A stretch of DNA of 28,453 bases, from the NCBI GenBank assembly GCA_050042755.1, contig JBHJJJ010000149.1, positions 1-28,453 on the forward strand, in the 5' to 3' direction. Both the position numbers and the translations under genes were made by a program. A model generated the notes under the pieces. It saw only the letters and a program-made list of their open reading frames with translations, searched no databases and was not told where the DNA came from. Each line of letters opens with the position of its first letter. The stretch's first letter is position 1. Positions 11,742 through 26,374 of this stretch are shown piece after piece. The stretch comes from Rivularia sp. (in: cyanobacteria). Lineage in GTDB: Bacteria > Cyanobacteriota > Cyanobacteriia > Cyanobacteriales > Nostocaceae.

Positions 11742-12947
11742 ATGGTAAGCACAAACAAGGATAATTATGCCATTTCAAGTATTGAGAACTTGCGCGAGTA
11801 TCTGTATTGGGCAATGAGTATTGAACATTCAACGATTCCGCCTTACATCATGGCACTCTACTCGATTAAGCCCGGTACAAATCTACAAGCATTCCAAATA
11901 CTTCGCTCTGTTGCCGTAGAAGAAATGCTGCACCTAACTCTAGCAGCCAATGTCTTTAATGCTGTTGGAGGAAAGATCGAAAATACTTTGAGTGGTTCTG
12001 ACTTTATCCCAGAATATCCAACCACCATAGCAACGGGAGAAGACGACTTTGAAGTTTCCCTAGAGAAATTTTCTAGGCAAAGTGTAGAAACTTTCCTCAA
12101 CATTGAACGTTCAAAACATGTGCCTGAAGATAAACCATTAGTGGGAAAAAGAGATCCCAAAAAAAGGTGGTTGACACGTGTTCCTAAGACTGGAAAGGAG
12201 GAAGGTTTTAGTTTCTATAGCATTGGGCTGTTCTATGCAGAGATTATCCGTGGTTTGAATGCCTTGTATAGAGAGCATCGTGACGATCTGTTTTGTGGCG
12301 ATCCTCAGCGGCAAATTACACCTGATTATTACTTTGATGGTGGAGGGGAAATTATCCCAGTTAAGAATCTACGCTCTGCAATACGTGCTTTGAAGATGAT
12401 TCAAGATCAAGGAGAGGGTTCGAGACAAGGAAGTATCTATGATGCAGAAAGAGAGCTTTCCCATTATTGTCGTTTTGAACAATTGTTGATCTTGGATACA
12501 AAGTATAGATCGGACTTGAAGAAAAACTTGCAAGATGAATTGGGTGATGGCTGGAAAGATGTATTGGGTGAAGACTGGAAAGAAGATGTGGGTGGAGACG
12601 GCTGGGGGCAATATTACCGGATAGATAGAGATAATCCAGAGAAATCCGATAAGCCATTTCATCCTACTGGTGAAAAATTTAAAGTTGATTGGGACGCTGT
12701 TTATCCCGTTAAGGACAATGCTAAGCTAAGTGATTACCCAGAAGGATCTGAGTTGCATACTGCAGCGAAGGAATTCCAGTCCAGCTACAAAGATTTCCTT
12801 GGTAAGATTGAGTACTCCTTTGATGGGCATCCCGATCGTTTAATTCCCGCAATCGGTGGCATGTTCAAGCTTAAGTATGGGGCTGAGCGGATAATGAAAA
12901 ATCCGATTCCAGGAGAGGAAGGAGTTAATGGCGCACCAATCTTCTGA
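11742..12947 (+). CDS. Ferritin-like (putative diiron) domain protein
   Basis: 401-aa ORF. N-terminal SIEHSTIPPYIMALYSI block typical of ferritin-like domain proteins. Two ExxH motifs: EMLH (codons 11922-11933) and ELSH (12453-12464). RBS ggggag. Confidence 0.65.
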   Translation: MVSTNKDNYAISSIENLREYLYWAMSIEHSTIPPYIMALYSIKPGTNLQAFQILRSVAVEEMLHLTLAANVFNAVGGKIENTLSGSDFIPEYPTTIATGEDDFEVSLEKFSRQSVETFLNIERSKHVPEDKPLVGKRDPKKRWLTRVPKTGKEEGFSFYSIGLFYAEIIRGLNALYREHRDDLFCGDPQRQITPDYYFDGGGEIIPVKNLRSAIRALKMIQDQGEGSRQGSIYDAERELSHYCRFEQLLILDTKYRSDLKKNLQDELGDGWKDVLGEDWKEDVGGDGWGQYYRIDRDNPEKSDKPFHPTGEKFKVDWDAVYPVKDNAKLSDYPEGSELHTAAKEFQSSYKDFLGKIEYSFDGHPDRLIPAIGGMFKLKYGAERIMKNPIPGEEGVNGAPIF

Positions 12948-13218: not shown

Positions 13219-13830
13219 ATGGGCACTAATAAAACTAAGACTGAGTTGATAGAGTATTTTCTAGATTTCTCAGCAGTGATAACTGGCTTTTATAAGTTTT
13301 ACTTACGAGGAACAGGTCAAGTTGACTCATACTACGACACCGTTAATAATATTATTGGCACGGAAATGTTTGAGGGATTGTTAATAACATTCCATAATCT
13401 TGATCTGAAAGCGAAAGCTGAGGGTGATAACTCAGTTTTGAATGAAGGGATTCTCCGTGATATCCTGGGTTCTGAAAAATTCGGTGCGATCTCTCGCAAC
13501 ATCATCAAACTCTGGTATCTAGGTACCTGGTATGAACTGCCTACATCATGGCGGGAAAAATTTGGTAATAAGGAGAAAGATATAAACTTTGTTGTAAGTC
13601 CACAAGCTTATAATGAAGGACTTTTGTGGCCTACCCTTAGCGTTAATCCTCGTGCTGCAAAAGCACCGGGATATGGCACCTGGGCTGAGGCTCCTTATGA
13701 ACCCCCTAAAATATACGATATTAAGGATACTAACTCACTCGAAGATGTGAAAAGCGTAGATTCTGACATTTTGAAGTCGAAACCAGTTGACATTGGCACC
13801 AAAGTATTAAACAAAACAAAATCTAACTGA
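13219..13830 (+). CDS. Small (gamma-like, 'hitch-hiker') subunit of FAD-dependent sugar dehydrogenase complexes (sorbitol-DH small-subunit family), lacking a Tat signal
   Basis: FLDFSAVITG, IIKLWYLGTW and VVSPQAYNEGLLWPTL...APGYGTWAEAP are collinear with the Burkholderia FAD-GDH gamma subunit as I recall it. RBS gaggag. No RR signal at the N-terminus. Confidence 0.6.
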   Translation: MGTNKTKTELIEYFLDFSAVITGFYKFYLRGTGQVDSYYDTVNNIIGTEMFEGLLITFHNLDLKAKAEGDNSVLNEGILRDILGSEKFGAISRNIIKLWYLGTWYELPTSWREKFGNKEKDINFVVSPQAYNEGLLWPTLSVNPRAAKAPGYGTWAEAPYEPPKIYDIKDTNSLEDVKSVDSDILKSKPVDIGTKVLNKTKSN

Positions 13831-13853: not shown

Positions 13854-14543
13854 ATGAACATTCAACCTTGGTTTCGTAAACTTTCTACTATTGCCCTGAT
13901 AATTATCGTTAGTTTAACGATATTTACTGCACCATCTTATGCTTTTGTCCCTAGCGATAAAGTACAGATCAATGTAAATCACTTGAAGAAGACAAATGAA
14001 TGTAATCAATGCGATCTATCAGGGGCAAATTTGTCTGGAGCCGATTTATATGGCAGTGCGCTGCTTGAAGCCAATCTATCGGGAGCAGATCTATCTGATG
14101 CCTTACTGAATGATGCCAAGCTAAAAGGAGCGAATTTATCGGGAGCGAATTTATCTAATGCCCTGCTCATGGGCATAACCTTGTCGGAAGCCAATCTAAC
14201 AAACGCTAATTTATCCAGTGCAGATTTGTACAATGCTCTTATGGAGAGTACAACATTGTCAGGAGCAGATTTAACAGGTGCCGATCTAACCTCGGCTATT
14301 TTATCTGAAACGGATTTGTCTAATGTTGATGGTGAAAATGTCAATTTAGATCAAGCAATTTTAAATAAAGCTAATCTATCGGGAGCAAATTTTACCCACG
14401 CTAAAATGAGAAATGCTAGGTTAGCCGAAGCCATACTTGAAGGAACCAAGCTGTTTGAGGCCGATCTATATCGTGCTGTTATGCCTGACACTACTATCTA
14501 TAAGGGAAAGGGAGATGTGTCAAAATTCGGTGCTTATCAGTAG
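13854..14543 (+). CDS. Pentapeptide-repeat protein with N-terminal signal peptide
   Basis: Hydrophobic N-terminus ending PSYA|F, followed by about 30 consecutive A(N/D)LSx pentapeptides (ANLSGADLYGSALLEANLSGADLSDA...). Confidence 0.9.
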   Translation: MNIQPWFRKLSTIALIIIVSLTIFTAPSYAFVPSDKVQINVNHLKKTNECNQCDLSGANLSGADLYGSALLEANLSGADLSDALLNDAKLKGANLSGANLSNALLMGITLSEANLTNANLSSADLYNALMESTTLSGADLTGADLTSAILSETDLSNVDGENVNLDQAILNKANLSGANFTHAKMRNARLAEAILEGTKLFEADLYRAVMPDTTIYKGKGDVSKFGAYQ

Positions 14544-14753: not shown

Positions 14754-15854
14754 ATGTTAAAACAAATTAGACGATTGTTGATTTCTGTTGTTATTTTGAT
14801 GTTATTCGGGATTTCAACTCCACTGCCAGCCAAAGCTGTGACAATCGATCCTCTGACGGGTGAGGATAAGTTGCCTTTGAAGATTTGCCGAGTCGGAGAA
14901 GCCCCTAAACCCCCCATTTTTGAACGCAAAAAAGTTCATTTGGGCATTACTCCCACAGGTTGGAGCAATAGTGACGATCGTAGTATCGATTTGGTTCCTC
15001 CTATCCCTTACCAGCAGATTCTAAGTGAAATGGAACTGGCTGGCTTCAAAGGCTCGCAAGTATCTCCAAAATATCCTGCAGACATCGATATTTTGCATGA
15101 CGAGTTAGAATTGCGTAAGTTAAAGATTTCTGAACCTTGGGTAGGAACTAAGTTCACTACCAATAGGAGCGAAGTTAGCAAGGAAATCTTCCATCAACAG
15201 ATGGACTATATGAAGAGCCTGGGTGATAGGGCTAGCAAGATCATTGTGGTGGCTGAACTAGGTGGTGCTGTCCATCAACAACCTGTTGAACCCTTAAACA
15301 ACAGACCTATTTATAGCGATGAACAATGGGATAAATTGACTGCAGGATTAAATGAGATAGGAAAAGAAGCACATGAAGCAGGGATGCGCTTAGTTTACCA
15401 TCCCCATGTGGGAACAGGAGTGGAAACGAGAAAGGATATCGATCGGTTAATGAACAACACCGATCCTAAATATGTCAAATTACTCCTTGATACTGGTCAT
15501 CTTTACTACGCAGGAGTCGATCCTCTTAAAGTTACCGAAGATTACGCCTATCGCATCGGGCACGTTCACTTAAAAAACATTCGTAAGGACAAGTTAGATG
15601 ACTCTCAAAACAAAAAGCTAAGCTTTATAGAGTCTATCAAAAATGGCGTATTTACCGTTCCTGGTGATTGCAGTGGGGTGATTGAGTTTGAGCCAATTTT
15701 CAAAGCACTTGCCAATTTCAAAGATAAAAAAGGAGAAGATAAAACATATAAAGGATGGTTAGTAGTTGAAGCCGAACAAGATCCAAACAAAGCCGAACCT
15801 TTGCTATACGCCCAAACAGCTCGTAAGTATCTACATCAAGTTACTGGTTTGTAA
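14754..15854 (+). CDS. Inosose dehydratase (IolE)-like xylose-isomerase-fold TIM-barrel enzyme with N-terminal signal peptide
   Basis: From HLGITPTGWSNSDD onward it is collinear with B. subtilis IolE as I recall it (VYHPHVGTGVET, DRLMNNTDPK, LLLDTGH, GVFTVPGDC, YKGWLVVEAEQDPNKAEPL). A 58-aa N-terminal extension begins MLKQIRRLLISVVILMLFGISTPLPAKA|V. Confidence 0.85.
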   Translation: MLKQIRRLLISVVILMLFGISTPLPAKAVTIDPLTGEDKLPLKICRVGEAPKPPIFERKKVHLGITPTGWSNSDDRSIDLVPPIPYQQILSEMELAGFKGSQVSPKYPADIDILHDELELRKLKISEPWVGTKFTTNRSEVSKEIFHQQMDYMKSLGDRASKIIVVAELGGAVHQQPVEPLNNRPIYSDEQWDKLTAGLNEIGKEAHEAGMRLVYHPHVGTGVETRKDIDRLMNNTDPKYVKLLLDTGHLYYAGVDPLKVTEDYAYRIGHVHLKNIRKDKLDDSQNKKLSFIESIKNGVFTVPGDCSGVIEFEPIFKALANFKDKKGEDKTYKGWLVVEAEQDPNKAEPLLYAQTARKYLHQVTGL

Positions 15855-15962: not shown

Positions 15963-16114
15963 ATATCCCAGTGTATTGCACTCAAACGAAAAGTAATATA
16001 ATTTTTCACACAAGGGTAGTGTACAAAAACCGAACTCTATCTCAAGTTTGTGTTTATTGCTCCGAATCGAGTTACTTTAAATCCTTAAAAAACCTTCAAA
16101 AGGAGAGAAATATA

Positions 16115-16507
16115 ATGTCCGATCGTGATGGTGAAGAAATTAAAAGAGTGTTTGAGCGAGTGTATGTTGATAATGTAAGACATAAAAAGGTTGAAGATTA
16201 CGGTAAAATGTACACAGAAGAGGCGCGCTGGATGCCTCCTGATGCAAAAGATCGCTGCGGTAAGGACGATATTATTGAAGGGTTTGCACAATCTGTCGCT
16301 CACCAAGATATTGAACCTTTTTTCAAGGCTGATGAAATTAATATCAACAATGATTTTGCTTATGTAATAGGTACCTCAGTGGCAAATATTTATCCTAATG
16401 ATGGAAGCCCACCCAAAGAAGTCAAATTTCGAGCTTTGTGGTTGATGAAAAAAGTGAACGGAGAGTGGAAAATTGACCGTCAAATTTGGAATAAGAAACC
16501 ACTGTAA
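16115..16507 (+). CDS. NTF2-like (SnoaL/DUF4440-type) small protein
   Basis: 130 aa counted from the ATG preceded by the RBS aaaaggagag. Size and pattern (EARWMPPD...EWKIDRQIWN) are typical of the NTF2-like fold. The ORF-track start at 15971 (GTG) has no RBS. Confidence 0.5.
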   Translation: MSDRDGEEIKRVFERVYVDNVRHKKVEDYGKMYTEEARWMPPDAKDRCGKDDIIEGFAQSVAHQDIEPFFKADEININNDFAYVIGTSVANIYPNDGSPPKEVKFRALWLMKKVNGEWKIDRQIWNKKPL

Positions 16508-16799: not shown

Positions 16800-17816
16800 A
16801 TGAGTAACCCTTCATCTTTGCCCGATATTTACCTCAGCTTTTTCATGTTTACTACAGATATGCAACCCGACGATCCAAAATATCGGGAAATCGTCGTTAA
16901 GCATATTAAAGAGCTACAAACATACGGTTATAAAGGGTTTGAGTTTCCCATTGCCCCCAAGTTTCCCCTAGATAGTATCAATGATGTAGAAAGCTATACT
17001 CGCTTGCGCGATTATTTAGATGAGCAAGGATTATCAGATGTTGCAATTGCGACTAACGTCATGGCAACGCGAACCTACGATCCAAGTTCTCCTTATCAGA
17101 AACAACGCCACGAAGCTTTAGAATATCTGAAATCAAGAGTTGATATTACTCACACAATGAGGGGAGAAATTATGATGGGTCCCATTGTGATTCCCTATGG
17201 TGATTTTCCTACCACAGATTTTAACGATCCTATTTGGAGCGATGAGTTACAGGATGAGTTAGCCCAACGTTATAAAAATGCTCATCATACTCTTAATCAA
17301 CTAGGTGAATATGCAGAGAAGAGAAACGTTAAATTAGCGATCGAACCGATCACCCATTGGGAAACTCCTGGGCCTAACAAATTGTCTCAATTAATTGACT
17401 TTCTTGAAGGGGTGAAGAGTAAACATGTGGGTGTTGTGATCGATAGCGCCCACGAAATTCTTGATGGAGATGGACCAGAAAAGTTTAAAGAGCATGTTGC
17501 CTATTTAGCTAAAGAGGGACGGCTTCATTATATCCAAGTTTCTCCTCCCGATCGCGGAGCCGTTGACACCAGTTGGATACCTTGGCAATCTTTCTTAAAA
17601 CCGGTTTTACAAGTTTATCAAGGACCGATTGCCGTAGAAATCTTTAATGCCATTCCTGCCTTTCTCAACGGCTTGCGTCTGACGCGACGCAAGTTTTGGA
17701 TACCAGGCGAGGATAAGGAAAATAAACCCTATCCCAGTGCTTATGAAACGGCTAACAACGCTATCCAAGCCACTCAAAGAGAACTGACGAAAATTCTCGA
17801 AAATTCTAACTGTTAA
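16800..17816 (+). CDS. Xylose-isomerase-like TIM-barrel protein (sugar phosphate isomerase / ketose 3-epimerase-like)
   Basis: RBS aaaggag. E-D-H-E metal-ligand pattern in the blocks KLAIEPITHWE, VVIDSAHE, HYIQVSPPDRG and IAVEIFN. Confidence 0.7.
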   Translation: MSNPSSLPDIYLSFFMFTTDMQPDDPKYREIVVKHIKELQTYGYKGFEFPIAPKFPLDSINDVESYTRLRDYLDEQGLSDVAIATNVMATRTYDPSSPYQKQRHEALEYLKSRVDITHTMRGEIMMGPIVIPYGDFPTTDFNDPIWSDELQDELAQRYKNAHHTLNQLGEYAEKRNVKLAIEPITHWETPGPNKLSQLIDFLEGVKSKHVGVVIDSAHEILDGDGPEKFKEHVAYLAKEGRLHYIQVSPPDRGAVDTSWIPWQSFLKPVLQVYQGPIAVEIFNAIPAFLNGLRLTRRKFWIPGEDKENKPYPSAYETANNAIQATQRELTKILENSNC

Positions 17817-17864: not shown

Positions 17865-19919
17865 ATGATCGTAGCTAGAAGATTAACTCAACGAATACGG
17901 ATTATCCCATTTTTTCTCACCATTGTTCTCGCCTTAAGCCTAGTTTTGAGCGGGTGGGAAGAAGCGATCGCCGATACTGCGATCGGTAGTAAAGAAACAA
18001 TGGGAGCCTGGGAAACTATTCCCATGCCACCCCAGAAGGATCGTATGCAATCTGTCCATACCATTCTCTTGCCCAATGGCAAAATTTTAATGGTTAGTGG
18101 TAGCAGTTTTCGCAGCCGCTACTATATTGATGAGAATGGTAAAGAGCATTTTAAAGAGGGTGTAGATCCTAATAACCAGGAGTTTTTTAATAATTCTGGC
18201 TTATTCGATCCAGAAACAGGAACATTTGAACACATTCCCTCGCCTCCTTCACTGTTATTCGATGAAGAACTAAAAGCTAATACAGGCAACGATCTGTTTT
18301 GTTCTGGTCACGTGCAGTTATCTAATGGTAATGTGTTATTTGTGGGGGGAACAGCACGTTATTACCCTGGAGGGGCTTTTAGCGGATCGAAGTGGTTGCA
18401 GCTTTACAACTGGCGCACGGGAGAATGGTCAAAACTCGACCAGATGAAAGATGGGCGTTGGTATCCCAGTCAAATCACTCTCCACGATGGTAAGGTAGCA
18501 ATTTTTTCCGGTTTAACATTTGGCACACCAAACGAAGTTAATCCCAGTTTAGAAATTTACGATCCCGAAACCCAAAAACTTCAGTACATCGATCTCACAC
18601 GAGTGAGAAATAGTCCCTTTAACACTAAAGTGGAAAATGAATATGACCAGGATCTTTACGATAGCATTGACCTTTATCCTCGCATCTTTTCTTTAGCCGA
18701 TGGAAGGCTTTTGATTAGCGGAGATGATGCAGGTATTGCCGGGGTATTGGTGCCTCATTTCAGTAAAAAAAGCTATCTAATGACTATTAATGATACTGGT
18801 TCGGGGGAAGTGTCTGTTAGTTTTGAAGTGGGGCCCGACAGAATAGAAACAACTAAAGCCTACGGAACTGGACTACAAATTCCCGATTCTGAAGACGTAT
18901 TGTTATTTGGTGGAATTATCGGCACCAATAGCATTAGTTATGGACGGCGTGGCAATACTAAAAACTTTCCTAAAGGCAGTCGAGTATCTACCAGTTTACA
19001 ACATTGGATTTCCCCAGAAAATAGTGGAGAGAAGAACGGTAAATGGGAAATAGTTGATAATTTCCTGGATAAACCGAGAGCTAATTTACAGGCTGTGATC
19101 TTACCCACCAAAGAAATTTTAGTAATCAATGGAGGTGAATTTCCCGAATACAAACCCGTCTATGAACCCTTGTTGTTGACTCCCGATAAAGATAAAGATA
19201 AAGAATCGGGCTATAAAAAACGATCGCTTAATAAGGCTCATCTTCCCAGACTCTACCATAATGGAGCAGTTTTATTGCCAGACGGGCGGGTATTTATTGT
19301 GGGAGGAAATGCCAACCGAGCTGGAATTGAAGAAAACGGAACGGTTCATGTGGATGTTTTGGGCGATCCTAAGACTTTTTTCACTACCGCGAAGTTAACA
19401 AATAAATCAGGCGAGGAAGAGAAATTTGACATCGATACTTTCTACCAAGATCCACAACATTATTACGTTGAGAGCGATGCGGGGCATTGCGACAAAGAAC
19501 TTTGCGATAAGGAACCTTTTGTTCCCGCAGAAATTTGGCAACCAGAGATTTTTAGTCCTCCCTATTTACAAAACCCAGGAGAGCGTCCTGAAATTATCAG
19601 CGCACCTGATACCCTCAAATATAATCAATCTAGCACGATTGAAGTTGACGATAAGATCAACAAAAATGGTTCTCTGGTTCTGGTGAAACTAGGATCTGTT
19701 ACCCATTCATTTGATTATGGACAACGGTTAGTTGATTTACATGCAAACCGGTTAGTTGATTACCCAGCAGGTGATTATGAGAACCTTAAATATCGAAGTA
19801 CAGTAAACTTTAAAACGCCCAGCAACGCCCATCTATATCCGCCAGGATACTACATGATGTTTTATATCAATGACTCTGGCGTACCTACCATCGCCAAAAT
19901 TATCCAACTTGAAGCGTAA
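17865..19919 (+). CDS. Copper-radical oxidase (galactose oxidase / glyoxal oxidase family, Kelch beta-propeller + C-terminal DUF1929-like domain), exported or membrane-anchored
   Basis: Cross-link Cys in DLFCSGH (18300-18302), Tyr in GRWYPSQ (18462-18464), Tyr-His in RLYHNGAVLLPDGRVFIVGGN (19254-19259), His in VTHSFDYGQR (19704-19706). Hydrophobic N-terminus IIPFFLTIVLALSLVLSGW. Confidence 0.85.
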   Translation: MIVARRLTQRIRIIPFFLTIVLALSLVLSGWEEAIADTAIGSKETMGAWETIPMPPQKDRMQSVHTILLPNGKILMVSGSSFRSRYYIDENGKEHFKEGVDPNNQEFFNNSGLFDPETGTFEHIPSPPSLLFDEELKANTGNDLFCSGHVQLSNGNVLFVGGTARYYPGGAFSGSKWLQLYNWRTGEWSKLDQMKDGRWYPSQITLHDGKVAIFSGLTFGTPNEVNPSLEIYDPETQKLQYIDLTRVRNSPFNTKVENEYDQDLYDSIDLYPRIFSLADGRLLISGDDAGIAGVLVPHFSKKSYLMTINDTGSGEVSVSFEVGPDRIETTKAYGTGLQIPDSEDVLLFGGIIGTNSISYGRRGNTKNFPKGSRVSTSLQHWISPENSGEKNGKWEIVDNFLDKPRANLQAVILPTKEILVINGGEFPEYKPVYEPLLLTPDKDKDKESGYKKRSLNKAHLPRLYHNGAVLLPDGRVFIVGGNANRAGIEENGTVHVDVLGDPKTFFTTAKLTNKSGEEEKFDIDTFYQDPQHYYVESDAGHCDKELCDKEPFVPAEIWQPEIFSPPYLQNPGERPEIISAPDTLKYNQSSTIEVDDKINKNGSLVLVKLGSVTHSFDYGQRLVDLHANRLVDYPAGDYENLKYRSTVNFKTPSNAHLYPPGYYMMFYINDSGVPTIAKIIQLEA

Positions 19920-19994
19920 TTCTTCATTTAACAAAGTTATCTGTCAAAGACAAGCAGAAGAAGCTCCTTGTATGGGTTAAAGCAACTATAGTAT

Positions 19995-20035
19995 AGACAA
20001 GGTAATTTAGCTTGCTCCCGATACTTACCTTGTCT
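19995..20035. other. Perfect 11-bp inverted repeat with 19-nt spacer between the oxidase and peroxidase genes
   Basis: agacaaggtaa (19995-20005) and ttaccttgtct (20025-20035), 40 bp upstream of the ATG at 20075. Confidence 0.6.
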
Positions 20036-20074
20036 CCAAGAGGTAGCAAAATTAAATCAAAAGGTTACAAACAT

Positions 20075-21574
20075 ATGGCACTCACAGAAGCAGATTTAAA
20101 AAATCTTCCTAAAGACGGAATCGATGCAGAAGATCCGGGTAAGTATGAAACATTACTTAAAGATTTACAGGGAAATATTTTGAAATCACATGGAAGAGAG
20201 CACAGCGTGCATCTGTTTTTAAAATGGAAATCCGATCGAGTTTATCATGCGAAAAAATGGATAAAAGACTTTGCAACAGATCCAGATCCCGAAGATAAAC
20301 AAGCCGAAGATAAAAATAAGGATAAATATAAAATATATGTAACATCAGCTTATAGGCAAGCACAAGAAGCGGCACATTTTAGAGTAACTAAAACAGAAGG
20401 GGAGATATTCGCCAATGTTTTCTTCAGTCGTAAAGGCTATGAAGCATTAGGATTCGATCCCTTTGATGTTCCTAAAGATCAGCCCTTTACTATGGGGATG
20501 AAGAATACTCGAGTTAAAGAAATGTTAAAAGATCCGGAGGTTGAAGAATGGGAAAAAGGGTATCAAAGTGATATCGATGCCTTAATTTTAATCGCCGATG
20601 ACGATCTAAACATATTATTGCAAGCTGTCAACCGAATTACTCCAGGGTTGCGTGAAGTTGCCGAAATTGTTCACCGAGAAGATGGCTTCGTGCTTAGAAA
20701 CGAAAATAATCAAGTCAGAGAACATTTTGGCTTCGCGGATGGGGTAAGTCAACCCTTATTTCTCAAACGAGACATTGTTAAAGCTCGAACCAACGATTGT
20801 AATTTTAGTCAATGGGATCCTAGAGCTTCCTTAGATATTATTCTGGTTAAAGATTACAATGGCAAAACAGAAGATAGTTATGGCAGCTTTTTGGTATATC
20901 GTAAATACGAGCAAGCTGTTCAAACTTGGGTTAAGTATGTACTGGAACTGACCAAAAAGTTGGGTAAAAATCCGAACAATATGGCGGATGCTCTCTACGC
21001 CGGTGCTTTAGTAATGGGACGTTTCCATGACGGAACTCCAGTTACTAAGTCTGATATCCCGACTCATGCTGCTGCCCCAACTAATAACTTTAATTATGAT
21101 GCTGATATTAAGGGGATGAAATGTCCATTTCAAGCTCATACACGGAAAACTAATCCTAGAGGAGATACAGGGAGAGTAGAGTCTTCTCAAAATTACGATG
21201 TAGATTTTGCGATCGAGAAAAGCCGTCGTATTGCTCGTCGAGCCATTAGTTATGGCCAGAGTAAAGACATCATGAACACTCCAGATACAGGCTCGGGATT
21301 ACTCTTCCTTTGTTTTCAAGCTGATATTGCCAAGCAATTTAATTTTTTACAGGATAGATGGGCAAATCCCGATCGCTTCGTGAAAGTTGGTGTAGGTACC
21401 GATCCGGTAATTGGGCAACCCGGTTGCAACCAGGATTCACCTGTACAACATAAATGGCCTCAAAAATGGGGTGAAGCCGATACCGTAGATTATCCTTTTC
21501 AGAAATCGATTACGATGAAAGGTGGAGAATATTTCTTTGCTCCGAGCATCAGTTTTCTCCAAAGTTTAGTTTAG
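20075..21574 (+). CDS. DyP-type haem peroxidase
   Basis: LQGNILKSHGR N-terminal block. GxxDG motif FGFADGVSQPLF (Asp codon 20738-20740). Proximal-His block FQAHTRKTNPRG (His codon 21137-21139). LLFLCFQADI near the C-terminus. Start set at ATG 20075 rather than the TTG at 20012. Confidence 0.85.
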   Translation: MALTEADLKNLPKDGIDAEDPGKYETLLKDLQGNILKSHGREHSVHLFLKWKSDRVYHAKKWIKDFATDPDPEDKQAEDKNKDKYKIYVTSAYRQAQEAAHFRVTKTEGEIFANVFFSRKGYEALGFDPFDVPKDQPFTMGMKNTRVKEMLKDPEVEEWEKGYQSDIDALILIADDDLNILLQAVNRITPGLREVAEIVHREDGFVLRNENNQVREHFGFADGVSQPLFLKRDIVKARTNDCNFSQWDPRASLDIILVKDYNGKTEDSYGSFLVYRKYEQAVQTWVKYVLELTKKLGKNPNNMADALYAGALVMGRFHDGTPVTKSDIPTHAAAPTNNFNYDADIKGMKCPFQAHTRKTNPRGDTGRVESSQNYDVDFAIEKSRRIARRAISYGQSKDIMNTPDTGSGLLFLCFQADIAKQFNFLQDRWANPDRFVKVGVGTDPVIGQPGCNQDSPVQHKWPQKWGEADTVDYPFQKSITMKGGEYFFAPSISFLQSLV

Positions 21575-21613: not shown

Positions 21614-24600
21614 ATGACACAGATTGAACAAACCCAAGAAGGAAAAAGAATCGTAGAGAATCGTCAGAAAACCAACGATTGGAAAAAGTGGGGCCCTTAT
21701 GTGAGCGATCGCCAATGGGGAACTGTACGAGAAGATTATAGCCCTGATGGCAGTGCATGGGACTTTTTCCCCCACGATCAAGCCCGCTCCCGTGCCTATC
21801 GTTGGGGTGAAGATGGCATTGCGGGAATTTGCGATAACTACCAACAGTTATGTTTTGCCATTGCGCTTTGGAATGGTGCAGATCCAATTTTAAAGGAAAG
21901 GCTGTTTGGCTTAACCGGTGGTAAAACCGATACAGGTAATCATGGAGAAGATGTTAAGGAATATTACTTTTATCTTGACAATACCCCTACTCACTCATAT
22001 ATGAAGTGCCTTTATAAATATCCTCAAGCTGAGTATCCATATGGGGACTTAGTTTCTGTAAATGGGCGAAACGGCAAACAAAGCCCAGAATACGAACTTC
22101 TGGACACAAAGGTATTTGAAGAGAATCGCTATTTTGATGTTTTCATAGAGTACGCTAAAAATACTCCCGAAGATATTCTGATTAAAATCAGTGTTACTAA
22201 TCAAGGCCCAGATCAAAAAACCCTAGATCTTCTCCCTACCCTCTGGTTCCGTAATACTTGGTCTTGGGGATTGTTCAATGTCGATTCTAAATTTCAGACT
22301 GATTTAGATCGCAGTCATTTTTCAGAAGAGCTAAAACAAGAATTTCAAAGCAACGGAATAAATTGCTCCGGGGTTGAAGTCAAGATTCAAAGCCAAGGAA
22401 ATGAATGGCTGATAACCGATAAAGAAAACCAACAAACCTATACGGTGAAGACAAGCCATCAACAACTCACTGTTTATCCTGAAAAACCATCTGTTCGTGA
22501 AACTAAATCTACTTCCGAATTCAGTGTAGTAGAAGCATATACTCCAGGAATACCCGGCTCTGAATCTGGGTTCAAAAAATGGCTGTATTGTCAACAGCCG
22601 CAAGAAATGCTTTATACAGAAAATGAAACAAATAAAGCTAGATTTGGCTGGGGTTCTAATACTTCTCCTTATGTTAAAGACGGCATAAATAATTATGTTG
22701 TTCGTAAGCAGAAGAATGCAGTTAATCCCAATAAAGAAGGAACAAAAGTTTCAGCCAGCTATGAATTGAATATTGCTCCCCGACAAACCAAGACAGTTTA
22801 TTTGCGACTGTGCGATTCAGAAAACTTGACAGCACCTTTCGATCAGTTTGAAACAATCTTTCAAAACCGCAAAAATGAAGCAGATGAATTTTATCAAGCT
22901 GTCAATCCTCATAAAATATCTGATGAAATACGTGATGTACAGCGTCAGGCATTTGCAGGAATGTTGTGGAGCAAGCAATTTTATTACTACGTAGTTCACC
23001 AGTGGTTGAACGGAGATCCAGCAGGCCCCACACCGCCGGAATCACGTAAAAGGTGGAAAAAGGACGAAAACGGCGAAAAGGGCAGAAATGTAGAGTGGAC
23101 TCATCTGTATAGCGAAGATATTATCTCCATGCCCGACAAATGGGAGTATCCTTGGTTTGCTGCTTGGGATTTAGCTTTCCATACTATTAGCTTCTCTTTA
23201 ATAGATCCAGATTTTGCGAAAAATCAACTTCGTCTTTTGATGCGGGAATGGTATTTGCATCCTAACGGTCAAATTCCAGCCTATGAGTGGAATTTTGGGG
23301 ATGTAAACCCACCTGTTCATGCATGGGCTACCTGGCGAGTGTATGAAATTGACGAGAAAATGAAAGGCGAAGGCGATGTGGATTTTCTCGAAGAAGTTTT
23401 TCAAAAATTAAATCTTTACTTCACTTGGTGGACTAATCGTAAAGATGTAGATGATAAGAACATTTTTTCTGGTGGGTTTTTAGGTTTAGATAATATTGGT
23501 CCAATTGATAGAAGCCATCTCAAACCTGGTGAAACCATCGAGCAAGCCGACGGCACTGCTTGGATGGGAATGTACTGTCTCAAAATGCTCAGAATAGCTG
23601 CAGAATTAGCCAGAAAAACTAAGAAGCCTGTTTATGAAACGATGGTATCAAACTATTTTCTGCATTTTCTGTTGATTGCTGATGCCATGAATAAAATTGG
23701 AGGAAATGATGTAAACCTCTGGAATGAACAAGAAGGTTTTTATGAAGACGTATTGATGACAAGCAACCAAGCTATTCAGGTAAAAGCACGTTCGATGGTA
23801 GGTTTAATTCCCTTATTTGCCGTTGAAACCCTGGATGAAACGATACTGGATGAATTCTGCTCCGAGGAGTTCAAAGAGCGTTTTGAGTGGTTTATGAAAA
23901 ATCGTTCAGACCTCACACAGCATGGTAACATTAGTATAATAAGGCAGAAAATTGAAAAATCACTAGACACACAGCAAGATTCAAAAATACTTCTGTCACT
24001 TGTTAGCCCACAGAGGCTTCAGAGAATCCTCACGAAAATGTTAGATGAAAGTGAGTTTTTGAGTCCTCATGGTATCCGTTCTGTTTCAAAGTACCACAAG
24101 CAACATCCCTTCGTTATAAATTTTGATGGACAAAATGGAAGTGTAGATTACGAACCAGCAGAATCTAGAATTAACTTATTTGGAGGTAATTCTAATTGGC
24201 GCGGCCCAATTTGGATGCCGGTAAATTTCTTGCTTGTTGAGTCACTGCAAATTTTCGATTACTTTTTGGGTGAACAATTCACAGTGGAATATCCCACCCG
24301 AAGCGGCGATCAAAAGAGTCTGTGGGACGTTAGCACAGATTTATCTTATAGGCTGATCGAAATTTTCCTCAAAAATAGTGACGGCGATCGCCCTGTTTAC
24401 GGAGGAAGCCAAACAATGTTTGGTGCAACCAATAAACTTCAAACCGATGAAAATTGGAAAAATTATATCTTGTTCTTTGAGTATTTTCACGGTGATAATG
24501 GTGCCGGACTTGGAGCTAGTCATCAAACAGGGTGGACGGGTTTAGTAGCTAAACTGATTCAGCAGTACGGAGAATATTCTGTTCAAGGTAATTCAACTGA

Positions 24601-24661
24601 TACTCTTCAAAATCAATTGAAAAATTACTCTCTTGCCGGTAGAACATCTCCTATAAAGTAA
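21614..24661 (+). CDS. GH63-like (MGH1-type) (alpha/alpha)6 glucosidase family protein
   Basis: 1015-aa ORF. N-terminal WGPYVSDRQWGTVREDYS...FPHDQARSRAYRWGEDG, then DKWEYPWFAAWDLAFH and NWRGPIWMPVNFL, which are typical of bacterial GH63-like 'glucosidase' proteins. Confidence 0.7.
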   Translation: MTQIEQTQEGKRIVENRQKTNDWKKWGPYVSDRQWGTVREDYSPDGSAWDFFPHDQARSRAYRWGEDGIAGICDNYQQLCFAIALWNGADPILKERLFGLTGGKTDTGNHGEDVKEYYFYLDNTPTHSYMKCLYKYPQAEYPYGDLVSVNGRNGKQSPEYELLDTKVFEENRYFDVFIEYAKNTPEDILIKISVTNQGPDQKTLDLLPTLWFRNTWSWGLFNVDSKFQTDLDRSHFSEELKQEFQSNGINCSGVEVKIQSQGNEWLITDKENQQTYTVKTSHQQLTVYPEKPSVRETKSTSEFSVVEAYTPGIPGSESGFKKWLYCQQPQEMLYTENETNKARFGWGSNTSPYVKDGINNYVVRKQKNAVNPNKEGTKVSASYELNIAPRQTKTVYLRLCDSENLTAPFDQFETIFQNRKNEADEFYQAVNPHKISDEIRDVQRQAFAGMLWSKQFYYYVVHQWLNGDPAGPTPPESRKRWKKDENGEKGRNVEWTHLYSEDIISMPDKWEYPWFAAWDLAFHTISFSLIDPDFAKNQLRLLMREWYLHPNGQIPAYEWNFGDVNPPVHAWATWRVYEIDEKMKGEGDVDFLEEVFQKLNLYFTWWTNRKDVDDKNIFSGGFLGLDNIGPIDRSHLKPGETIEQADGTAWMGMYCLKMLRIAAELARKTKKPVYETMVSNYFLHFLLIADAMNKIGGNDVNLWNEQEGFYEDVLMTSNQAIQVKARSMVGLIPLFAVETLDETILDEFCSEEFKERFEWFMKNRSDLTQHGNISIIRQKIEKSLDTQQDSKILLSLVSPQRLQRILTKMLDESEFLSPHGIRSVSKYHKQHPFVINFDGQNGSVDYEPAESRINLFGGNSNWRGPIWMPVNFLLVESLQIFDYFLGEQFTVEYPTRSGDQKSLWDVSTDLSYRLIEIFLKNSDGDRPVYGGSQTMFGATNKLQTDENWKNYILFFEYFHGDNGAGLGASHQTGWTGLVAKLIQQYGEYSVQGNSTDTLQNQLKNYSLAGRTSPIK

Positions 24662-24744
24662 GTTGGGTTGTTCGCGAAGCGTTGCGAAGCAATACGATTC
24701 GTGTTACCCAACACCAGCGTTAGGTAGTGCCGTTCAGCTTTGCT

Positions 24745-24771
24745 GCGGGGGTGGAGATTCTCCACCCCCGC
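24745..24771 (+). terminator. Rho-independent terminator of the GH63-like gene
   Basis: GC-rich perfect stem gcgggggtgga-(gattc)-tccacccccgc followed by an A/T-rich tail atattattgatatatttta, 84 bp after the stop. Confidence 0.7.
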
Positions 24772-24874
24772 ATATTATTGATATATTTTATTAAACGAAG
24801 GTAGTTAGAAGTTATAAGAAGGAAGCTCGTTAATATTATTTGTTCGTATTAATCCTTTTCTATTAGGAATGGCC

Positions 24875-25419: not shown

Positions 25420-25767
25420 ATGGAAGACGAATACGATTCAAAACAAAGTGATAGTTTGCCTTTTGCTCCAATGTGCCAAGGGTTGAAGTTATTTTGTGGC
25501 GAACAATCTCTACAATTAAATCTGAATTTTGCAAATCATGCTCTTATTCCATTATCTCAAGGAGAGGTTGGGGATGTTGTATGTATTATAGAAATTCAGA
25601 CCGTAAACTGCATCGACTATTTATTAAATATGGGATTGGTAGCTGGAACTGAATTGCAAATTATTAGTACAACTGCAACTGGTGATGTAGTTGTGAACTT
25701 TGATGATAAATGCCTGGGCTTGGGTGCAGATATGGCTAACGGCATTTTTGTCAGAAGATTTTCATAA
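25420..25767 (+). CDS. feoA: FeoA-domain protein (stand-alone, with N-terminal extension)
   Basis: C-terminal about 75 aa fit the FeoA SH3-like pattern: PLSQGEVGDVVCI...LLNMGLVAGTELQIIS...VVVNFDDKCLGLGADMANGIFV. Confidence 0.7.
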   Translation: MEDEYDSKQSDSLPFAPMCQGLKLFCGEQSLQLNLNFANHALIPLSQGEVGDVVCIIEIQTVNCIDYLLNMGLVAGTELQIISTTATGDVVVNFDDKCLGLGADMANGIFVRRFS

Positions 25768-26002: not shown

Positions 26003-26374
26003 ATGAGGGGTGATGATGATTTAGATAAAAGCCCCGAAAAATCACAATCTCAGGAATGGCAAGGATTTAAATTCTTTTGCAAAGACTCTGGTGAGGAGTT
26101 ATATGAGATTTCAAATTTTTCAGAATCTAATGACATTATTCCTCTATCCCAAGCAAGGGCGGGAGATATTGTCTTGATTGTAAAACTCATAAACATAGGC
26201 TGCGTTAAAGATTTGCGAAATATGGGGTTCCTTCCTCAAAAGGAGATTCAGGTTATCAGCCGTACTACCACTGAAACCGTCGTCGTTGTTTTAGAAAATC
26301 AACGTATAGGTTTAGGTAAAGACATGGCTAAGAGTATTTTAGTGAGAAAAGTAATAAAGGTAGAAGTACAATAG
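26003..26374 (+). CDS. feoA: FeoA-domain protein (second paralogue, with N-terminal extension)
   Basis: Strong RBS aaggagg. PLSQARAGDIVLI...LRNMGFLPQKEIQVIS...VVVVLENQRIGLGKDMAKSILV. Confidence 0.7.
   Translation: MRGDDDLDKSPEKSQSQEWQGFKFFCKDSGEELYEISNFSESNDIIPLSQARAGDIVLIVKLINIGCVKDLRNMGFLPQKEIQVISRTTTETVVVVLENQRIGLGKDMAKSILVRKVIKVEVQ

What the first reader, a model, noticed from the sequence alone, without database searches (positions are those of the whole stretch)
17865..21574. Adjacent copper-radical oxidase and DyP peroxidase: an H2O2 producer/consumer pair in a cyanobacterium
The 684-aa protein keeps every galactose/glyoxal-oxidase active-site residue: cross-link Cys (DLFCSGH), axial and equatorial Tyr (GRWYPSQ; RLYHNG) and both His (YH; VTHSFDYGQR). 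It also has an N-terminal signal or anchor.

The next gene, 155 bp downstream, has the DyP GxxDG motif (FGFADGVSQP) and the proximal-His block (AHTRKTNPRG). This pairing mirrors the fungal glyoxal-oxidase/peroxidase couple. It also mirrors the Streptomyces GlxA-DtpA pair, which acts on a secreted glycan during development.

Here the pair sits among glycosidase-like genes, which suggests oxidative modification or cross-linking of an extracellular glycan or phenolic (sheath-pigment-type) substrate. The DyP shows no obvious signal peptide, so the topology of the couple is unresolved.
Basis: partly seen in the sequence, partly recalled or inferred. Interest (0 to 1): 0.7.

Follow-up and report, generated by a model that had tools for sequence, protein, structure and literature searches.

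The report
Conserved cyanobacterial copper-oxidase/DyP-peroxidase gene pair
A secreted copper-radical oxidase gene and a haem DyP peroxidase gene sit side by side here and in nearly every related cyanobacterium, inside a conserved sugar-oxidation gene cluster of unknown function, which gives the well-studied peroxidase AnaPX a likely natural partner for the first time.

Summary
Window 17865-19919 (+) encodes a 684-aa copper-radical oxidase (CRO). It has all five active-site residues (C146, Y200, Y464, H465, H614) and a cleavable-looking signal peptide. A DyP gene starts 155 nt downstream (20075-21574). It is a class V DyP, 57% identical to AnaPX (Alr1585) of Anabaena PCC 7120.

The pairing is not chance:
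- DyP follows CRO on the same strand in 73 of 80 genome loci (median gap 93 nt).
- All 28 assessable metagenomic AnaPX-type DyPs have a CRO next door, against 1 of 20 more distant DyPs.
- The two proteins co-diverge (r = 0.81).
- An older duplicate exists as a CRO-DyP pair.

In more than 50 loci the pair ends a conserved operon-like cluster. Its order is Fe-S flavoprotein sugar dehydrogenase, ferritin-like protein, unknown protein, pentapeptide protein, IolE-like protein, DUF4440, TIM-barrel epimerase-like protein, CRO, DyP, with a variable alpha-glucosidase. In Anabaena this cluster is alr1576-alr1586, which is reported as co-induced.

The topology is conserved and split: CRO, the IolE-like protein and the pentapeptide protein carry signal peptides, and DyP never does.

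The H2O2 producer/consumer reading is plausible but biochemically untested. Direct DtpA-like or fungal-type activation of the oxidase is disfavoured. The sheath-pigment idea is not supported. I rate it a new variant of a known kind, of moderate to high interest.

The parts
17865..19919 (+). Copper-radical oxidase (CRO), 684 aa; orthologue of Alr1584 of Anabaena PCC 7120 (62% identity). Seven-bladed kelch propeller plus a C-terminal E-set domain.
   Evidence: ORF. Pfam. GlxA alignment. Invariant C146, W199-Y200, Y464-H465 and H614. AF2 model and Foldseek. Identity to Alr1584.
17865..17972 (+). Predicted Sec-type signal peptide of the CRO (residues 1-36). It has a basic n-region, a 19-residue hydrophobic core, and a conserved A-I-A signal-peptidase site.
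   Evidence: Sequence. A34, I35 and A36 are invariant or nearly so. A hydrophobic N-terminus is present in 78 of 81 orthologues. The AF2 model has a helix at 5-28 followed by a disordered linker. Cleavage itself is inferred.
19920..20074 (+). CRO-DyP spacer of 155 nt, with no strong terminator-like hairpin.
   Evidence: The median spacer across 73 loci is 93 nt.
20075..21574 (+). Class V (C-type) DyP peroxidase, 499 aa; orthologue of AnaPX/Alr1585 (57% identity). Distal Asp D222 (nt 20738-20740), proximal His H355 (nt 21137-21139), conserved R388/R389 block. No signal peptide.
9768..11645 (+). GMC-family FAD dehydrogenase. It is most like the catalytic subunits of FAD-glucose dehydrogenase and fructose dehydrogenase, and keeps the 3Fe-4S Cys motif (C275, C281, C285). 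Part of the conserved cluster.
   Evidence: Present in 53 of 80 loci.
11742..12947 (+). Ferritin-like protein (PF12902) with conserved ExxH-type motifs; function unknown. Cluster member.
   Evidence: Present in 52 of 80 loci.
13219..13830 (+). Conserved protein with no known domain. Cluster member.
   Evidence: Present in 51 of 80 loci.
13854..14543 (+). Pentapeptide-repeat protein with a signal peptide. Cluster member.
   Evidence: The signal is present in 44 of 51 orthologues.
14754..15854 (+). IolE-like (myo-inosose-2 dehydratase family) TIM-barrel protein with a signal peptide. Cluster member.
   Evidence: TIGR04379 scores 318.6 against a cut-off of 290. PDB 3cny/9zmu match at 1e-60. The signal is present in 50 of 55 orthologues.
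16115..16507 (+). DUF4440 (SnoaL-like) protein. The likely true start is M49 of ORF 15971-16507. Cluster member.
   Evidence: Orthologues are 129 aa. Present in 54 of 80 loci.
16800..17816 (+). Xylose-isomerase-like TIM barrel (sugar epimerase/isomerase type). It matches PDB 2qw5 at E 9e-159 and sits immediately upstream of the CRO with a 48-nt gap.
   Evidence: Present in 58 of 80 loci.
21614..24661 (+). GH63-like / MGH1-like (alpha/alpha)6 glycoside hydrolase, 39 nt after the DyP. This is the variable end of the cluster; other genomes have a GH15 here.
   Evidence: Present in 33 of 80 loci. GH15 alternatives.
24744..24772 (+). Strongest terminator-like hairpin in the region (13-bp stem, 10 G-C pairs). 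Likely 3' end of the transcription unit.
   Evidence: pattern match only.
7089..9662 (+). 857-aa six-hairpin glycoside hydrolase (GDE_C / rhamnosidase-6H / MGH1-like). An accessory cluster member in a few genomes.
   Evidence: Orthologues lie beside the cluster in L004, L048, L084, L086, L096 and L097.

Best explanation
The two genes form a co-inherited, co-transcribed oxidase/peroxidase module at the end of a conserved sugar-oxidising operon.

**Proposed mechanism**
1. The CRO is exported by the Sec pathway and its signal peptide is removed at A-I-A.
2. It acquires copper and forms its Cys146-Tyr200 radical cofactor outside the cytoplasm, in the periplasm or possibly the thylakoid lumen.
3. 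There it oxidises a primary alcohol or hydrated aldehyde on a sugar-derived substrate, reducing O2 to H2O2.
4. The DyP, an AnaPX orthologue, stays in the cytoplasm. It acts as the dedicated sink or user of the H2O2 that diffuses in, at the expense of a still unknown reductant that may be a pathway intermediate.

**Shown**
- The identity and catalytic residues of both enzymes.
- The signal peptide on the CRO and its absence on the DyP.
- Near-universal adjacency, co-divergence and co-duplication.
- Membership of a conserved cluster.
- The flavoprotein in the cluster is an Fe-S dehydrogenase type rather than an oxidase, so by inference from family the CRO is the only predicted H2O2 source.

**Inferred**
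- H2O2 formation and H2O2 transfer.
- The substrate class.
- The compartment.
For: **Enzyme identities.**

**Adjacency.**
- 73 of 80 genome loci have DyP on the same strand, 72 of them in CRO-then-DyP order.
- 67 loci have a gap of at most 300 nt; the median is 93 nt.
- The reverse test: 28 of 28 assessable metagenomic DyPs at 44% identity or more have a CRO beside them, against 1 of 20 at 37-43%.

**Co-divergence and duplication.**
- Pairwise distances of the two proteins correlate at r = 0.81 (Mantel 0 of 999).
- CROs split into a cluster-embedded group (52) and a paralogous pair-only group (20).
- Every DyP's nearest relative lies in the same group, 72 of 72.
- The adjacency survives in a gammaproteobacterial methanotroph (L047), with the gene order inverted.

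**Transcription.** No strong terminator lies between the genes and a strong hairpin follows the GH63-like gene. The alr1576-alr1586 cluster is co-induced 2.4- to 7.2-fold in an Anabaena septal mutant (PMC7797909).

**H2O2 source.** The GMC protein keeps the 3Fe-4S Cys motif of the FDH/FAD-GDH large subunits.

**Precedents.**
- Fungal AlcOx-peroxidase tandems are known (PMC9770985).
- AnaPX is a very active peroxidase, with kcat/Km about 1e7 M-1 s-1 on RB5 (PMC8197335).
Against: - No biochemical data exist for any member of this CRO clade. GlxA itself is a poor conventional oxidase (my recollection of the GlxA literature).
- The two proteins are predicted to be on opposite sides of the membrane in essentially all genomes. 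Coupling must therefore go through diffusing H2O2, which is a weaker rationale for strict adjacency than direct contact would be.
- A Prochlorococcaceae clade keeps the cluster and the CRO without a DyP within reach (L055, L058, L060), so the DyP is dispensable for CRO function there.
- The reducing substrate of the DyP is unknown.
- Localisation rests on sequence features only. Two Anabaena exoproteome supplements contained neither protein.
Confidence: 0.5

Rival explanations
1. Direct partner model. The DyP physically activates or matures the CRO. It would either oxidise the inactive Cu(II) form to the Cu(II)-tyrosyl radical form, as fungal tandem peroxidases and HRP do, or promote Cu loading and Cys-Tyr cross-link formation, as DtpA does for GlxA. 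Both proteins would have to be in the same compartment.
For: - Both known CRO-peroxidase systems work this way (PMC9770985; PMC4736821; PMC8197335).
- Strict adjacency, co-divergence and co-duplication are what one expects of proteins that touch each other.
- Some paralogous DyPs carry a C-terminal Laminin_G_3 lectin-like domain, which is typical of extracytoplasmic proteins.
Against: - The CRO has a conserved Sec-type signal peptide (78 of 81).
- The DyP has none at its conserved MALTE start in any of 75 orthologues, and there is no Tat motif.
- No protein in the cluster has a conserved twin-arginine signal that could carry a folded haem protein across.
- Related class V bacterial DyPs (SaDyP1, SaDyP2) were not secreted (PMC8395514).
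- Picocyanobacterial clusters keep the CRO without a DyP.
Confidence: 0.15
2. Same pathway, no H2O2 relay. CRO and DyP are consecutive or parallel steps acting on organic intermediates of the cluster's sugar or cyclitol pathway. The DyP might oxidise an enediol, hydroquinone or phenol-type intermediate, or act as an oxidase as reported for DyP2. H2O2 would come from general metabolism.
For: - The pair ends a conserved cluster of a sugar dehydrogenase, IolE-like dehydratase, epimerase-like TIM barrel, SnoaL-like protein and glycosidases.
- Accessory genes in some genomes (MRJP/yellow-like, DJ-1/PfpI) point to reactive carbonyl or quinone chemistry.
- The split topology fits separate steps.
- DyP2, the next-closest solved relative (1e-70), is listed with Mn-dependent oxidase activity (PMC8197335).
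Against: - Twenty paralogous CRO-DyP pairs occur without the rest of the cluster. The tightest dependency is therefore between these two proteins, not between the DyP and the other pathway enzymes.
- A peroxidase still needs a peroxide source, and the CRO is the only predicted one in the cluster.
Confidence: 0.25
3. One reading: the pair oxidatively cross-links or modifies a sheath pigment or phenolic compound, or an extracellular glycan of the sheath or EPS.
For: - The CRO is exported.
- GlxA acts with a glycan synthase (PMC4736821).
- The authors of PMC7797909 speculate about exopolysaccharide and sugar modification for alr1576-alr1586.
- In PCC 7120 the flanking GH15 has a signal peptide.
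Against: - No glycan synthase, cslA-like gene or pigment gene lies in the window or in the conserved cluster.
- The cluster occurs in Microcystis, Rippkaea, planktonic Nostocales, a Prochlorococcaceae clade and Methylovulum, which share no sheath pigment.
- The DyP is not exported.
Confidence: 0.07
4. The adjacency is fortuitous, or reflects only shared ancestry among close relatives.
For: None beyond the fact that function is untested.
Against: - The adjacency holds across Nostocales, Oscillatoriales, Pleurocapsales, Chroococcales, Pseudanabaena and Spirulina at 45-80% protein identity.
- It also holds in a paralogous copy and in a proteobacterium.
Confidence: 0.02

Closest known systems
AnaPX (Alr1585), class V/C-type DyP of Anabaena sp. 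PCC 7120 (PDB 5c2i)
   Same: It is the orthologue of the window's DyP: 57% identity over the full length, the same start, the same catalytic motifs, and the same genomic position directly after the CRO orthologue Alr1584.
   Different: The window protein has an 18-residue acidic/lysine-rich insertion (residues about 68-85) and a few short indels. AnaPX has been studied only as an isolated dye-decolourising enzyme. I found no paper that links it to Alr1584.
GlxA / DtpA of Streptomyces lividans (radical copper oxidase plus DyP)
   Same: GlxA is the closest solved relative of the CRO. It shares the same Cys, Trp-Tyr, Tyr-His and His active-site pattern and is also extracytoplasmic. It has a functional link to a DyP that uses GlxA-derived H2O2.
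   Different: - Overall structural identity is only about 19%, and the NCBIfam GlxA model scores 176 against a cut-off of 800.
- An insertion of about 125 residues in GlxA (4unm residues about 113-238) has no counterpart here.
- There is no cslA/cslZ neighbourhood.
- DtpA is class I and Tat-exported, and is encoded with sco/ecuC rather than beside glxA. This DyP is class V, has no signal peptide, and is adjacent.
Fungal tandem AlcOx-peroxidase pair (Colletotrichum, Magnaporthe; Bissaro et al. 2022, PMC9770985)
   Same: A CRO gene and a haem peroxidase gene are kept adjacent across many genomes and co-expressed. Adjacency was the clue to a functional couple.
   Different: - The fungal peroxidase is a class II peroxidase-catalase superfamily enzyme.
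- The fungal genes are head-to-head and both proteins are secreted.
- The fungal peroxidase activates the CRO by direct contact.
- Here the peroxidase is a DyP, the genes are in tandem on one strand in an operon-like cluster, and only the CRO is exported.
Fungal glyoxal oxidase with lignin/Mn peroxidases (white-rot fungi)
   Same: A CRO acts as an extracellular H2O2 supplier for haem peroxidases. This is established knowledge and was not tested here. The Glyoxal_oxid_N Pfam domain is detected below its cut-off.
   Different: The fungal genes are not an operon, both enzymes are extracellular, and the role is lignin degradation, which does not apply to cyanobacteria.
DyP2 of Amycolatopsis sp. 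75iv2 (PDB 4g2c)
   Same: It is the second-closest solved DyP (1e-70), in the same class V/C-type.
   Different: In the metagenome scan, DyPs at about 37-43% identity to the window protein almost never have a CRO neighbour (1 of 20). The CRO linkage is therefore specific to the AnaPX subfamily. DyP2's own neighbourhood was not examined.

Membership tests
Copper-radical oxidases (CAZy AA5-type: galactose/glyoxal/alcohol oxidase, GlxA) | Seven-bladed kelch beta-propeller followed by a C-terminal E-set (DUF1929) domain | tested here: met
   Pfam GO-like_E_set at 1e-22 plus Kelch motifs. The AF2 model hits GlxA and the fungal CROs at E 1e-29 to 1e-24, TM 0.56-0.65.
Copper-radical oxidases (CAZy AA5-type: galactose/glyoxal/alcohol oxidase, GlxA) | Cys and Tyr that form the thioether-linked redox cofactor (GlxA C121/Y289) | tested here: met
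   C146 and Y200 align with them and are invariant in 19 orthologues. Formation of the cross-link itself cannot be tested with these tools.
Copper-radical oxidases (CAZy AA5-type: galactose/glyoxal/alcohol oxidase, GlxA) | Axial Tyr plus two His copper ligands (GlxA Y501, H502, H589) | tested here: met
   Y464, H465 and H614 align and are invariant.
Copper-radical oxidases (CAZy AA5-type: galactose/glyoxal/alcohol oxidase, GlxA) | Cu-dependent two-electron oxidation of an alcohol or aldehyde with O2 reduced to H2O2 | not testable with these tools
   Needs enzyme assays.
GlxA proper (NCBIfam NF052501 equivalog; Streptomyces morphogenesis oxidase) | Score above the equivalog cut-off | tested here: not met
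   175.8 bits against a cut-off of 800.
GlxA proper (NCBIfam NF052501 equivalog; Streptomyces morphogenesis oxidase) | The extra inserted domain of GlxA, and synteny with cslA/cslZ glycan-synthesis genes | tested here: not met
   GlxA residues about 113-238 align to only 12 residues of the query. No glycosyltransferase lies in the window or the cluster.
DyP-type peroxidases | Family model above cut-off; two-domain ferredoxin-like fold | tested here: met
   TIGR01413 at 125.2 against 100.5; Pfam DyP_N and Dyp_perox_C. 5c2i at 9e-183.
DyP-type peroxidases | GxxDG distal Asp, proximal His, distal Arg | tested here: met
   D222 in FGFADG and H355 in AHTRKTNPR are invariant. The R388/R389 block aligns with the RRGIPYG block of D-type DyPs. 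Which of the two Arg residues is the distal one was not resolved.
DyP class V (former C/D types), AnaPX subfamily | Closest to AnaPX, DyP2 and the fungal D-type DyPs rather than to class I (A-type) or class P (B-type) | tested here: met
   PDB ranking is AnaPX, DyP2, ancestral D-type, then fungal DyPs. The class I EfeB model TIGR01412 scores only 42 against 428. Class labels are from PMC8197335.
DtpA-like DyP (class I, Tat-exported GlxA maturation factor) | Twin-arginine signal peptide and extracytoplasmic location | tested here: not met
   No hydrophobic or RR N-terminus at the conserved start in any of 75 orthologues.
Fungal-type tandem CRO-peroxidase couple | Conserved adjacency of a CRO gene and a haem peroxidase gene | tested here: met
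   73 of 80 genome loci and 28 of 28 assessable metagenome loci.
Fungal-type tandem CRO-peroxidase couple | Both proteins secreted to the same space, so the peroxidase can activate the CRO by contact | tested here: not met
   Only the CRO carries a signal peptide. This is a prediction from sequence; experimental localisation was not available.

The most novel reading that the evidence does not exclude
The cluster of about 10-12 genes (Anabaena alr1576-alr1586 and its orthologues) would encode an undescribed oxidative pathway for an alpha-glucoside-, sugar- or cyclitol-derived substrate in cyanobacteria, split between two compartments.

- **Cytoplasmic half:** an Fe-S flavoprotein dehydrogenase with a di-iron ferritin-like partner, epimerase-like and SnoaL-like enzymes, and a class V DyP.
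- **Exported half:** the copper-radical oxidase, an IolE-like dehydratase, a pentapeptide-repeat protein and sometimes a GH15.

The CRO-DyP module would be its H2O2-linked core. This would give AnaPX-type DyPs their first physiological role. It could also tie the pathway to envelope or periplasmic sugar handling and cell-cell communication in filamentous forms.
Probability: 0.3. Interest if true: 0.75.

Novelty: new variant of a known kind. Interest (0 to 1): 0.6.

Why it matters
**A partner and context for AnaPX-type DyPs.** Bacterial class V DyPs such as AnaPX have been characterised kinetically and structurally, but their physiological roles 'have not yet been established' (PMC8395514). A near-obligatory gene partner (a GlxA-like copper-radical oxidase) and a conserved pathway context make that question directly testable in a genetically tractable model, Anabaena PCC 7120 (alr1584 and alr1585).

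**A third kind of CRO-peroxidase partnership.** The known cases are the fungal class II peroxidase tandems and Streptomyces GlxA/DtpA. Here the partnership appears with a different peroxidase class, in a different phylum, and with a conserved split topology. That raises a mechanistic question: is the link an H2O2 relay across a membrane or direct activation?

**H2O2 in bloom-forming cyanobacteria.** The cluster is present in bloom formers such as Microcystis, Dolichospermum and Cylindrospermopsis, which I recall as notably H2O2-sensitive. An endogenous extracytoplasmic H2O2 source paired with a dedicated peroxidase could matter there.

Tried and rejected
**Literature.** Eight searches and several paper reads were made.
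- No paper describes a cyanobacterial CRO-DyP operon, or names alr1584 or alr1585 by locus tag.
- The only hit on the cluster is a transcriptome remark on alr1576-alr1586. Its supplement is not held.
- Ogola et al. 2009, the AnaPX paper, is not held.
- Two Anabaena exoproteome supplements contain none of the cluster proteins.
- One search was badly designed: genus names alone satisfied the threshold, so it was uninformative.

**Function of the other cluster proteins.**
- A profile search of the ferritin-like protein against the PDB found only the structural-genomics entry 3hl1.
- The unknown 203-aa protein has no Pfam, NCBIfam or PDB relative.

**Ideas rejected.**
- The GMC enzyme as a second H2O2 source of pyranose-oxidase type. 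Its best relatives are the Fe-S dehydrogenase subunits, and the 3Fe-4S Cys motif is kept.
- The CRO as a lipoprotein or Tat substrate. The Cys and the RR are not conserved among orthologues.
- A DyP signal peptide in two Pseudanabaena loci. The hydrophobic stretch lies in the open frame upstream of the conserved MALTE start.
- A DUF4904 remnant in the 292-nt gap before the TIM-barrel gene. There is no tblastn hit in the window.

**Scans.** The promoter scan gave fewer sites than shuffled sequence and was not used.

Full report
**1. Observation.** The window is a cyanobacterial contig. The CRO is 100% identical to a protein of a Rivularia sp. MAG, and isiA, isiB and feoA genes flank the region.
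- ORF 17865-19919 (+) encodes 684 aa, and the next ORF on the same strand ends at 21574.
- The alignment to the AnaPX structure starts at the Met encoded at 20075.

**2. The oxidase.**
- Pfam finds the galactose-oxidase E-set domain, Kelch repeats and, below threshold, Glyoxal_oxid_N.
- The best solved relatives are Streptomyces lividans GlxA (4unm, 1e-26) and then fungal galactose, alcohol and glyoxal oxidases.

| Window residue(s) | GlxA residue(s) |
|---|---|
| C146 | C121 |
| W199-Y200 | W288-Y289 |
| Y464-H465 | Y501-H502 |
| H614 | H589 |

- These residues are invariant in 19 orthologues at 53-80% identity.
- An AlphaFold2 model (pLDDT 75, pTM 0.81) gives a propeller plus a C-terminal beta-sandwich. 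It retrieves GlxA first and the fungal CROs next.
- The protein is not GlxA proper. The equivalog model scores 176 against 800. About 125 residues of GlxA have no counterpart. No cslA-type gene is nearby.
- The N-terminus is basic, then has 19 hydrophobic residues, then a conserved A-I-A. This looks like a Sec signal peptide with a signal-peptidase I site. The model shows a helix at 5-28 followed by a disordered linker.

**3. The peroxidase.**
- It passes the DyP family model.
- It matches the AnaPX chain in 5c2i at E 9e-183 and is 57% identical to genomic Alr1585. It is also related to DyP2 (1e-70).
- The distal Asp (D222, FGFADG), the proximal His (H355) and an RR block are conserved.
- It belongs to class V, C-type (labels from PMC8197335).
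- There is no signal peptide, and there is no room for one because the upstream frame is closed.

**4. Is the pairing meaningful?** Four lines of evidence bear on this.

*Genome loci.* A scan of one genome per species with a CRO profile returned 80 loci.
- tblastn with all window proteins showed a DyP on the same strand in 73 of them, 72 in CRO-then-DyP order.
- The median gap is 93 nt, and 67 loci have a gap of at most 300 nt. Three have an MRJP-like gene inserted.
- Of the seven loci without a DyP, two end at the CRO stop codon and one ends 297 nt after it.
- The remaining four belong to one Prochlorococcaceae-type clade (L055, L056, L058, L060). One of them, L056, has only 1.1 kb of downstream sequence.

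*Reverse test.* A metagenome scan used a DyP profile.
- All 28 assessable DyPs at 44% identity or more have a CRO beside them.
- Only 1 of 20 assessable DyPs at 37-43% identity does.
- The linkage is therefore a property of the AnaPX subfamily.

*Co-divergence.* This used 72 complete pairs.
- Pairwise distances correlate at r = 0.81 (Mantel 0 of 999).
- The CROs fall into a group of 52, in which 51 pairs lie inside the large cluster, and a group of 20 paralogous pairs that stand alone.
- Every DyP's nearest neighbour is in the same group as its CRO (72 of 72). The pair was therefore duplicated and inherited as a unit.
- Several genomes hold both copies, for example Spirulina sp. 06S082 (L018 and L054).

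*Model strains and a non-cyanobacterium.*
- The adjacency exists in Anabaena PCC 7120 (alr1584-alr1585), Rippkaea PCC 8801 and Microcystis PCC 9807.
- It also exists in the methanotroph Methylovulum psychrotolerans, with the order inverted (L047).

**5. Context.** In more than 50 of the 80 loci the pair closes a collinear cluster. The members, in order, are:
- A GMC flavoprotein. Its best relatives are the catalytic subunits of FAD-glucose dehydrogenase and fructose dehydrogenase (1e-75 and 1e-65). It keeps their 3Fe-4S cysteine motif, so it is a dehydrogenase rather than an H2O2-forming oxidase.
- A ferritin-like PF12902 protein with conserved ExxH motifs.
- A conserved protein with no known domain.
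- A pentapeptide-repeat protein.
- An IolE-family TIM barrel, above the TIGR04379 cut-off.
- A DUF4440/SnoaL-like protein.
- In many genomes, a DUF4904 protein.
- A sugar-epimerase-like TIM barrel that matches PDB 2qw5 at E 9e-159.
- The CRO.
- The DyP.

The cluster is flanked by a variable (alpha/alpha)6 glycosidase. Here and in 33 loci it is GH63-like. In PCC 7120, Microcystis and Rippkaea it is a GH15 glucoamylase type, and sometimes the 857-aa six-hairpin GH found here at 7089-9662. MRJP/yellow-like and DJ-1/PfpI genes join in some genomes.

In the window all these genes are on the + strand. The gaps around the pair are short (48, 155 and 39 nt). The only strong terminator-like hairpin follows the GH63-like gene at 24744-24772.

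In Anabaena the cluster alr1576-alr1586 is reported as co-induced 2.4- to 7.2-fold in a sepJ/fraC/fraD mutant (PMC7797909). This is the only literature mention I found.

**6. Topology.** A hydrophobicity scan of orthologue N-termini shows a conserved split:

| Protein | Orthologues with a signal-type N-terminus |
|---|---|
| CRO | 78 of 81 |
| IolE-like | 50 of 55 |
| Pentapeptide-repeat | 44 of 51 |
| DyP | 0 of 75 at the conserved start |
| Epimerase-like TIM barrel | 0 of 60 |
| Ferritin-like | 0 of 53 |
| Unknown protein | 0 of 53 |
| GH63-like | 0 of 24 |

- The GMC 'hits' in that scan are its FAD-binding GxGxxG motif.
- The GH15 of PCC 7120 also has a signal peptide.
- No conserved twin-arginine motif is present anywhere in the cluster.

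**7. Mechanism.**
- The most economical model is an oxidase/peroxidase module linked by H2O2.
  - The exported CRO oxidises an alcohol or aldehyde group on a sugar-derived substrate and releases H2O2.
  - The cytoplasmic DyP is the dedicated sink or user of that peroxide.
- I give the specific H2O2 relay a probability of about 0.5. Some functional coupling between the two proteins seems much more likely, about 0.85.
- The direct-contact models are disfavoured by the split topology and by the DyP-less picocyanobacterial clusters. These models are radical activation as in the fungal tandem (PMC9770985) and maturation as by DtpA (PMC4736821). They cannot be excluded without localisation data.
- A pathway-only link through an organic intermediate remains possible. 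It is weakened by the 20 stand-alone paralogous pairs.
- The sheath-pigment idea does not fit the taxonomic spread.

**8. Comparison and novelty.**
- CRO-peroxidase partnerships are known from white-rot GLOX with LiP/MnP, from GlxA/DtpA, and from the Colletotrichum and Magnaporthe AlcOx-peroxidase tandem.
- This case differs in four ways:
  - the peroxidase is a class V DyP;
  - the genes form a same-strand operon inside a sugar-oxidation cluster;
  - the phylum is different;
  - the compartments are conserved as split.
- AnaPX is a well-characterised enzyme without a known role (PMC8395514). I found no paper noting its CRO neighbour.
- I therefore classify the finding as a new variant of a known kind, with interest about 0.6.

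**9. Limits.**
- All functional statements are inferences from sequence and synteny.
- Signal peptides were judged by a simple hydrophobicity scan and motif conservation, not by SignalP.
- The genome scan keeps the best 80 of 101 loci and one genome per species.
- The substrate is unknown.

Noticed in passing
window 26795-27850 (-) and 5092-6078 (-): isiA carries an in-frame TGA at about 27337, where the L002 orthologue has GGA (Gly). moaA carries two consecutive in-frame TAG codons at 5779-5784. Both genes are otherwise intact. They are either recent pseudogenes or consensus errors in the MAG.
   Followed up: partly
L050-L054, L059, L061-L062, L064, L066-L068, L070-L072, L074-L076, L078-L079: A second, paralogous CRO-DyP pair (about 50% identity) occurs without the sugar cluster, often in genomes that also have the cluster copy. 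Several of these DyPs are fused to a C-terminal Laminin_G_3 (ConA-like lectin) domain and still have no N-terminal signal. Seven of these loci add an animal-haem-peroxidase-like gene, a cysteine-dioxygenase-like gene and a SAM methyltransferase.
   Followed up: partly
PDB 5c2i compared with L082:12003-13412: The deposited AnaPX chain reads FGFVHG where the genomic Alr1585 reads FGFVDG. The crystallised protein therefore appears to carry His in place of the distal catalytic Asp.
   Followed up: no
window 9768-11645 (+): The GMC protein keeps the C-x5-C-x3-C 3Fe-4S motif of the FAD-GDH/FDH large subunits. It has Gln instead of the second Cys of their CC pair. It is followed by a ferritin-like protein instead of a cytochrome c or Tat-signal small subunit. 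This may be an unusual electron-acceptor arrangement.
   Followed up: partly
window 14754-15854 (+) and 13854-14543 (+): An IolE-family dehydratase, normally cytoplasmic, and a HetL-like pentapeptide-repeat protein both carry conserved signal peptides.
   Followed up: partly
L047 (Methylovulum psychrotolerans) and L111 (metagenome): The whole cluster, without the pentapeptide gene, occurs with DyP upstream of CRO. L047 is from a gammaproteobacterial methanotroph and L111 is a metagenome contig of unknown origin. This suggests horizontal transfer of the cluster.
   Followed up: no
L055 (labelled Bradyrhizobium ivorense MAG): Its gene order and identities match the Prochlorococcaceae loci L056-L058, and its GC content is 65%. 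It may be a mis-binned contig. This clade has the cluster and the CRO but no DyP within 10 kb.
   Followed up: no
L128 (metagenome, GC 63%): A much more divergent CRO (37% identity) and DyP (42% identity) pair is also adjacent. The linkage may extend outside cyanobacteria beyond Methylovulum.
   Followed up: no
window 25420-25767 and 26003-26374 (+): Two tandem FeoA-domain genes lie next to isiA and isiB (flavodoxin). This iron-stress neighbourhood directly follows the cluster only in the closest relatives (L001-L003).
   Followed up: no
L083 (Rippkaea PCC 8801), L084 (Microcystis PCC 9807), L023, L086-L087, L095-L097: MRJP/yellow-like (PF03022) and DJ-1/PfpI genes are inserted between or directly after CRO and DyP in several genomes. 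This hints at reactive-carbonyl or quinone chemistry.
   Followed up: partly
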